Source of the DNA: Octopus vulgaris
Taxonomy: Eukaryota
Length of the DNA stretch: 64,000 nt
Direction: 5' to 3'
NCBI GenBank assembly: GCA_951406725.2
Contig: OX597817.1
Span: forward strand, 118,110,001 to 118,174,000
The position numbers and the translations under genes were made by a program. How positions within the stretch are numbered: position 1 is the stretch's first letter; each line of letters starts with the position of its first letter. Of the stretch, positions 53,062-53,784 are shown piece by piece. The notes below the pieces were generated by a model. That model saw nothing but the letters and a program-made list of their open reading frames with translations, had not been told where the DNA came from and made no database searches.

Positions 53062-53784
53062 AAAGGAAATGAAGAAAATGCTGACAAAATAATTTAAGTA
53101 ATTTAAGTAATTTAATTAGGTGAAAGTTATTTTTACCGGTTGCGCATTTGTTATGCTTATCAAAATATATTTTTTAAAGAGAGATTAGAGTTCCTTTTTA
53201 GGGAAATACACTCCCTAACTAGCGGAAAATACAAACCCTAACTACGCGCTGAAAAGCTATTTAAAATATCCACATGACGTCTACTGACCAGCCTGAACAA
53301 TATGAATTTTCAACAACGCTATTTTCGAAAATTCTAAACATTCACGTGACCTCTCTATTATGACCACATCCACGTGACATCTTTATTATGACCAATAAGA
53401 AATTTTAGGCGCGACACTAGCCAAATTTTAACTTCTCTGGAGCCTTTTTTCTTACCCCAAATCAACTTCCATTCAAACATTCACGTGACCCCTTCATAAT
53501 GACCAATCAAAATTGTATTGACCATTGTCCACAAGAAATTTTAGGCGCGAAACCAAGCAAATCCAAAACAACTCTGGAGCCTCTTTTTTCACATATAAGA
53601 GACAGCAAACCCAACATAAAGTCAGATAAGAGAAAAAAATCTATCAGAAAAGGAACTCTAATCTCTCTTTAAAAAATATATTTTGATAAGCATAACAAAT
53701 GCGCAACCGGTAAAAAGAACTTTCACCTAATTAAATTACTTAAATTACTTAAATTATTTTGTCAGCATTTTCTTCATTTCCTTT
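53062..53784. mobile_element. Young foldback/MITE-like element with 137-bp inverted arms, inserted in (TA)n
   Basis: 53062-53198 and 53648-53784 are reverse complements with 1 mismatch. (TA)n lies at ~52969-53027 and 53785-53952. The interior holds an internal tandem subrepeat. Confidence 0.92.

What the first reader, a model, noticed from the sequence alone, without database searches (positions are those of the whole stretch)
53062..53784. Very young foldback element whose two inverted arms each carry a hammerhead-ribozyme-like motif
Seen: 137-bp arms with 136/137 identity inside (TA)n, and no coding capacity. At 53683-53712, and mirrored on the minus strand of the left arm, the sequence reads UUGAUAA-GCAU-aacaa-AUGC-GCAA-CCGG-UA. 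Known: Penelope-like element (PLE) pLTRs carry minimal type-I hammerheads of the form CUGANGA-stemII-GAAA-(palindromic loop such as CCGG)-UH. The spacing, perfect 4-bp stem II and ACCGGU palindrome match, but three core bases differ (C3U, G8A, A13C). Inference: this may not be a DNA-transposon MITE but a non-autonomous PLE derivative with inverted pLTRs. C3U plus G8A would preserve the known 3-8 base pair, so the variant core may be under selection rather than simply decayed.
Basis: partly seen in the sequence, partly recalled or inferred. Interest (0 to 1): 0.75.

Follow-up and report, generated by a model that had tools for sequence, protein, structure and literature searches.

The report
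Penelope stub with mutant hammerhead core
This hairpin is two back-to-back end pieces of a common Penelope-type jumping gene inserted in a TA repeat, a known and ordinary pattern; its one oddity is that nearly all copies of this family share a single change in a self-cutting RNA motif that likely weakens, but may not abolish, the cut.

Summary
In detail: arms 136/137 identical, motif on both strands. It is not a MITE and no sign was found that it moves as a unit. It is a one-off insertion of a Neptune-type Penelope-like element: a 564-bp 3' end plus an inverted 171-bp copy bearing the optional tail. Relatives continue into RT and GIY-YIG frames, ten of them open over 784 codons. Inverted arms, one-sided tail, (TA)n target and U3-A8 are all in print, and this scan has reported such stubs on other DNA. 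The motif is a true hammerhead homologue: stem II covaries across eight motif families. A13C is family-wide (1956 matches against 21 with another base), but special selection on the core was not shown. Insertions joined to (TA)n start at the predicted cut site in 15 of 39 loci of a canonical sister family but 1-3 of 25 here. Yet two chimeras join another hammerhead's cut end exactly to this site. Best reading: weakened, not dead; cutting is untested.

The parts
52959..53027 (.). (TA)n target, left side
53028..53061 (-). Optional PLE tail, on the left arm only
   Evidence: same tail follows 22 of 42 family ends and leads to ORF1 in complete copies
53062..53198 (-). Short inverted copy of the element's 3' end (pLTR end)
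53134..53163 (-). Hammerhead-like motif, minus-strand copy
53199..53220 (.). Junction filler: a second copy of the first ~20 bases of the long arm, forming a 7-bp mini hairpin; private to this locus
   Evidence: repeat D15; absent from the 5' flanks of the other copies printed
53221..53784 (+). 5'-truncated direct copy: non-coding 3' UTR/pLTR of a Neptune-type PLE, no tail
   Evidence: 98% to L002/L040, which runs upstream into GIY-YIG and RT frames
53338..53592 (+). Internal imperfect direct repeats of the 3' UTR (28-bp and ~137-bp periods)
53594..53599 (+). TATA-like box, 30 nt before the pile-up of 5' ends (inferred promoter)
53622..53627 (+). Initiator-like TCAGAT; inferred transcription start near 53624
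   Evidence: 33 of 100 sampled copies end 45-67 nt upstream of U3; TA-joined copies begin at GATAAGAG; the Inr label is recalled
53683..53712 (+). Minimal type I hammerhead homologue, U3-A8 and A13C (C at 53704); predicted cut between 53712 and 53713
53785..53968 (.). (TA)n target, right side; no target duplication can be told inside the repeat

Best explanation
This is a single truncated, head-to-head insertion of a Penelope-like retrotransposon into (TA)n, likely made by two cDNAs primed from opposite target strands, and its family-wide A13C hammerhead likely cuts only weakly. Shown: family identity, RT and GIY-YIG frames in relatives, variable arm lengths, tail on one arm only, family-wide core. 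Inferred: the GIY-YIG domain nicks both strands of the TA run; reverse transcription starts at two sites about 42 nt apart (with and without tail); the two cDNAs stop early and are joined by fold-back and microhomology. The RNA likely starts near 53624, 30 nt behind a TATA box, so many copies are run-off stubs of 160-200 bp. The motif is inherited from the pLTR hammerhead of all such elements; A13C and a 2-bp helix I are predicted to lower cleavage, which the element evidently tolerates.
For: Relatives run upstream into RVT_1 and GIY-YIG frames with a CX4CXXC linker; 10 of 150 scored matches lie in a 784-codon open frame; four complete copies carry the same core in 5' and 3' repeats. Exactly one tail in 48 of 50 distinct head-to-head pairs, none with two (one duplicate locus dropped); 17 of 18 and 3 of 3 in two sister families. 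Here the untailed arm is the longer, so it cannot be a fold-back copy of the tailed arm. In a subfamily lacking ~54 nt behind the TATA box the 5' ends shift to 3-16 nt before U3. Stem II pairs 31/32 against 17.3 shuffled, helix I 32/40 against 16.1, over 8 motif families. TA-joined 5' ends at the cut site: 15/39 in canonical family B, 1 clear and 2 ambiguous of 25 here, p=0.002 to 0.025. A13 changes give 10-100-fold loss (PMC4075628). Hammerhead mutants did not impair insertion in vitro (PMC11167929).
Against: No cleavage assay. In foldback and chimeric copies this family does have ends at the cut site: L257, L262, L267 among the first 100 hits, about as often as family B (2-3 among ~70), plus L275, L277; so activity may be near normal. 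Breakpoints were scored by eye; family B list is the first 100 of 118 rows. TA microhomology at the site explains 5 of the 15 B cases. The start site and two-cDNA route are inferred from DNA alone. Clade assignment rests on motifs, not on a tree.
Confidence: 0.8

Rival explanations
1. Same insertion mechanism, but the motif is a dead relic fixed by descent from one master lineage.
For: A13C plus 2-bp helix I; almost no TA-joined ends at the cut site; core no better kept than many other stretches; folding gives stem II and the palindrome duplex but no helix I.
Against: Two chimeras from different subfamilies join another hammerhead's cut end to exactly N1.1 of this family; both arms of L267 start there; a subfamily has a ~200-nt insert at the site.
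Confidence: 0.25
2. The variant core is a selected, fully working (protein-assisted or partner-assisted) ribozyme.
For: C13 in 67 of 68 copies not chosen on the core, across subfamilies with 83-99% identity; no core variant at 5% or more in four runs under four organism labels; exact cut-site chimeras; a PLE hammerhead needed protein to cut (PMC11167929).
Against: No second family with C13 or any compensating change was found; no excess conservation; deficit of TA-joined cut-site ends.
Confidence: 0.15
3. The 757-bp unit is a mobile non-autonomous foldback element or a MITE with 137-bp terminal inverted repeats.
For: Near-perfect arms, TA flanks, no coding capacity.
Against: No second full-length match among 40 scored; arms are unequal pieces of a retroelement end with lengths from ~110 bp to over 3 kb elsewhere; junction filler is private.
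Confidence: 0.02

Closest known systems
Endonuclease-bearing PLE insertions with inverted 5'-truncated copy and one-sided 30-40-bp tail (Arkhipova et al. 2013, PMC3846280; Craig et al. 2021, PMC8557442; passages read)
   Same: Head-to-head arms, tail at one end, palindrome at the junction, (TA)n target, TATA plus initiator in the pLTR, ORF1 parted from RT by a frameshift.
   Different: Only the counts are added here: one tail in 48 of 50 pairs, never two; the tailed arm can be the shorter or the longer.
Neptune/Nematis-type PLEs (Craig et al. 2021, passages)
   Same: RT, then CX2-5CxxC linker, then C-terminal GIY-YIG; (TA)n preference.
   Different: Neptune versus Nematis not resolved; no tree with named references.
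Minimal type I hammerheads of metazoan PLEs, including U3-A8 (Cervera and de la Pena 2014, PMC4209133, text parts 1-2 of 4; Perreault et al. 2011, PMC3088659, passages)
   Same: Position in the pLTR, G10.1-C11.1, palindromic helix III, U3-A8 covariation.
   Different: A13C fixed in the whole family; helix I only 2 bp; no unpaired base between 9 and 10.1. A13C was not in the passages read, but their supplements and Lunse et al. 2016 were not seen.
PAc of Anolis (Frangieh et al. 2024, PMC11167929, passages and second half of main text)
   Same: Two RT start sites that bound the tail; both strands cut and extended; hammerhead not needed for insertion in vitro.
   Different: That paper found no RNA ends at the cut site; here genomic 5' ends pile up at it in the canonical sister family.

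Membership tests
EN+ Penelope-like element | RT followed by GIY-YIG endonuclease | tested here: met
   RVT_1 and GIY-YIG above Pfam cut-offs in family copies; absent from the window copy, which is truncated
EN+ Penelope-like element | pLTRs as partial tandem or inverted copies | tested here: met
   direct 5' repeats in L082, L083, L085, L088; inverted in L086, L087
EN+ Penelope-like element | Optional 30-40-bp tail at one end | tested here: met
Neptune clade | CX2-5CxxC linker between RT and EN | tested here: met
   CNRPNCGIC in the 784-aa frame; shared with Nematis
Neptune clade | RT phylogeny with named Neptune elements | not tested
   no reference set fetched
Naiad/Chlamys | Endonuclease N-terminal to RT | tested here: not met
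   RT at 265-442, GIY-YIG at 691-778
Minimal type I hammerhead | 3-8 base pair | tested here: met
   U3-A8; C3-G8 and U3-A8 both occur in family E relatives
Minimal type I hammerhead | G12-A13-A14-A15.1 | tested here: not met
   C13 in 1956 matches, other base in 21
Minimal type I hammerhead | Stem II with G10.1-C11.1 and covariation | tested here: met
   pair 1 was fixed by the search pattern, pairs 2-4 were not
Minimal type I hammerhead | Palindromic helix III for dimer formation | tested here: met
   ACCGGU; 6-bp intermolecular duplex in co-folding
Minimal type I hammerhead | Helix I closing the junction | tested here: inconclusive
   2 contiguous pairs, against 3-6 in families B, C, D, E, G
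Minimal type I hammerhead | Self-cleavage | not testable with these tools
   only indirect genomic footprints, mixed
MITE / DDE transposon | Fixed-length terminal inverted repeats shared by many copies of one unit | tested here: not met

The most novel reading that the evidence does not exclude
Genomic copies record in vivo hammerhead cutting: 5' ends pile up at the cut site in a canonical family and drop about five- to tenfold in this natural A13C mutant family, which still spread to some 2000 copies; and cut RNAs of different hammerhead elements are joined end to end at their cut sites and then retrotransposed as chimeras, a route of RNA recombination between PLEs and retrozymes.
Probability: 0.35. 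Interest if true: 0.6.

Novelty: new variant of a known kind. Interest (0 to 1): 0.36.

Why it matters
The locus itself is an ordinary stub. The family matters a little more: what PLE hammerheads do in vivo is stated as open in the papers read (PMC4209133, PMC8557442, PMC11167929). Two sister families in one genome, 70% identical in protein, one with a canonical core and one with A13C, both with intact frames, form a ready-made pair for testing whether cutting matters for transposition. The strict one-tail rule and the promoter-tied 5' ends constrain models of how PLEs insert.

Tried and rejected
Rfam scan: no hammerhead match at E<=10. pattern had one N too many and missed the family; redone. 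One search used a structure string out of register with an alignment not anchored on structure; its negative result is void and was replaced. Search for a second family with C13: 6 hits, five decayed copies of this family and one single copy of family F. Search for older A13 members: 3 hits, two are single members of this family (one with a C13 partner arm), one unrelated; no ancestral subfamily found. Excess conservation of the core: not shown; the count was biased by choosing copies on the core. Arms from different parents: coarse subfamily agrees in 43 of 44 pairs (15.3 expected), fine class in 35 of 44, so mixing is rare here. Sequencing runs: no RNA holder listed on record; contigs cannot show ends or expression. 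Lunse et al. 2016 not held. Paper searches that found no A13C or cephalopod PLE hammerhead report; the library lacks most subscription papers. No protein homologue search, tree or fold was run.

Full report
1. Observation. The arms 53062-53198 and 53648-53784 are reverse complements at 136 of 137 positions. The motif stands at 53683-53712 and, mirrored, at 53134-53163; a 20-mer of it occurs twice in the window against 0.06 expected. Both flanks are (TA)n. One correction: 34 bp (53028-53061) lie between the left arm and the TA run. Rfam shows no hammerhead here.

2. What it is. A DNA search of the genome (2.8 Gb) had 1288 candidates, 40 scored. Only this locus matched the whole 723 bp; the others matched from position 160 on and ran upstream into shared sequence that encodes RT and then GIY-YIG. 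Of 150 scored protein matches, 10 lie in an open frame of 784 codons, with RVT_1 at 265-442, a CX4CXXC linker and GIY-YIG at 691-778. Four of 12 fetched long copies have a direct 5' repeat, and the variant core was seen in both repeats. So 53221-53784 is the non-coding 3' end of a Neptune/Nematis-type PLE, cut short at its 5' side (nearest of 68 copies: 10 substitutions); 53028-53198 is a second, shorter 3' end in the opposite orientation, and the 34 bp are the family's optional tail. The 22-bp junction repeats the first bases of the long arm and forms a 7-bp hairpin; it was not in the other flanks printed. Among the first 100 core matches on contig C1, 25 head-to-head pairs under 10 kb and one tail-to-tail pair occur, with spacing from 35 bp to 8.6 kb. 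Inverted arms are the family's usual way of inserting, not fixed terminal repeats. Craig et al. 2021 (passages) and Arkhipova et al. 2013 (passages) describe this arrangement, the one-sided tail and the TA target.

3. How the insertion likely formed. Of 51 pairs scored, one was a duplicate locus; of 50, 48 have the tail on exactly one arm, 2 on neither, none on both (p about 1e-12). Sister families B and C give 17 of 18 and 3 of 3. The tailed arm may be the longer or the shorter. Here it is the shorter, so the long arm cannot be a fold-back copy of it, and it cannot be a copy of the long arm, which has no tail. Two RNA-templated cDNAs are needed. This fits the in vitro result that a PLE protein cuts and extends both strands and starts at two sites that bound the tail (PMC11167929). 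The two arms usually share a subfamily (43 of 44 coarse, 35 of 44 fine). Of 100 sampled cores, 33 end 45-67 nt upstream of U3 and 16 end 3-16 nt upstream. The first group lies 30 nt behind a TATA-like box (53594-53599); several of the second group belong to a subfamily in which that box sits about 34 nt before U3. I infer run-off at a transcription start near 53624. No RNA data test this.

4. The motif. UUGAUAA and GCAA are the family state: 42 arms, 1956 exact matches genome-wide with control 1 (the 100 listed all belong to this family), and only 21 with another base at 13. Four runs under four organism labels show no core variant at 5% (contigs, labels coded). The same genome holds 3807 matches with canonical GAAA, control 4, mostly U3-A8 among those listed. 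Two of these families lie behind PLE endonuclease frames at 70% and 55% identity. Over 8 motif families that I picked from these hits, stem II pairs at 31 of 32 positions (17.3 shuffled) and helix I at 32 of 40 (16.1 shuffled). The motif is therefore a real homologue of the PLE minimal hammerhead. U3-A8 is published (PMC4209133; PMC3088659). This family differs in A13C and a helix I of 2 contiguous pairs. Changes at A13 are reported to cost 10-100-fold (PMC4075628 citing earlier work). Selection on the core is not shown: in 68 copies not chosen on the core, 0 of 30 core columns and 30 of 534 others carry a shared substitution (p=0.39), and 158 of 535 windows are as invariant.

5. Does it cut? 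Indirect evidence only. Copies whose 5' end joins (TA)n within 30 nt of the site: family B 15 of 39 loci start between U16.1 and N1.3 (first 100 of 118 rows); this family 1 clear and 2 ambiguous of 25. Fisher p=0.002, 0.009 or 0.025 for 1, 2 or 3; per copy (2128 and 2774) p=0.002 to 0.029; ends elsewhere in the core are equally common (p=0.46). Scoring was by eye. Against a dead core: among the first 100 downstream matches, L257, L262 and L267 start at or within 2 nt of the site, a rate like family B's 2-3 in about 70. L257 joins a retrozyme-type hammerhead up to its own cut base to exactly N1.1 of this family. A conditioned search found the same joint on another contig with a different subfamily of this family (L275). 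Such ends are what RtcB joins (PMC7229834, passages), though a template jump would do as well. I put weak activity at about 0.55-0.6, dead 0.25, full 0.15. Hammerhead mutants did not impair PLE insertion in vitro, which fits a family that spread with a damaged core.

6. Novelty and verdict. Structure and class are known; the scan has reported such stubs before in this and other genomes, a family-wide core change in a sea urchin, and copies starting at a cut site (notes, not support). I found no paper with A13C in a PLE, but Lunse et al. 2016 and all supplements were unseen, so this is weak. Also seen: PMC6155905, PMC6765202, PMC2837043 (passages), bioRxiv 2026.07.22.740005 (abstract). New variant of a known kind; interest 0.36.

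Noticed in passing
L083:2559-3854 and 3785-6139; L280, L281, L283, L284: Complete elements have a 431-aa ORF1 overlapping the RT-EN frame in -1 phase. A U_UUU_UUA slip site is kept in 12 of 12 family copies and in sister families B and C; no stem follows it; a splice acceptor is the rival. A frameshifted ORF1 is in Craig et al. 2021, Fig. 1 legend.
   Followed up: partly
L273/L274 (C1:1.716 Mb, duplicated) and L275 (C15:13.484 Mb): Chimeras joining a retrozyme-type hammerhead at its cut base to N1.1 of this family, from two different subfamilies.
   Followed up: partly
L135, L163, L189, L216: A subfamily carries a 200-315-nt insert in the A run right behind the predicted cut site; origin not traced.
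   Followed up: no
L121-L127 (C1:20.00 Mb): 359-bp tandem repeats with a canonical type I hammerhead, retrozyme-like, in two opposed arrays; dispersed relatives have U3-A8. Already noted by the scan.
   Followed up: partly
L101-L104, L109, L159: Families C and F have an extra A (GAAAA) before the palindrome, another family-wide core variant.
   Followed up: no
window 23310-26277 (-): Broken Helitron-like element: PIF1 helicase match; the upstream frame looks like Rep by recalled motifs, no Pfam hit.
   Followed up: no
window 227-640 (+), 30429-30842 (-), 60049-60603 (+): Tc1-type and mariner transposase fragments and a probable LINE fragment without Pfam hit.
   Followed up: no
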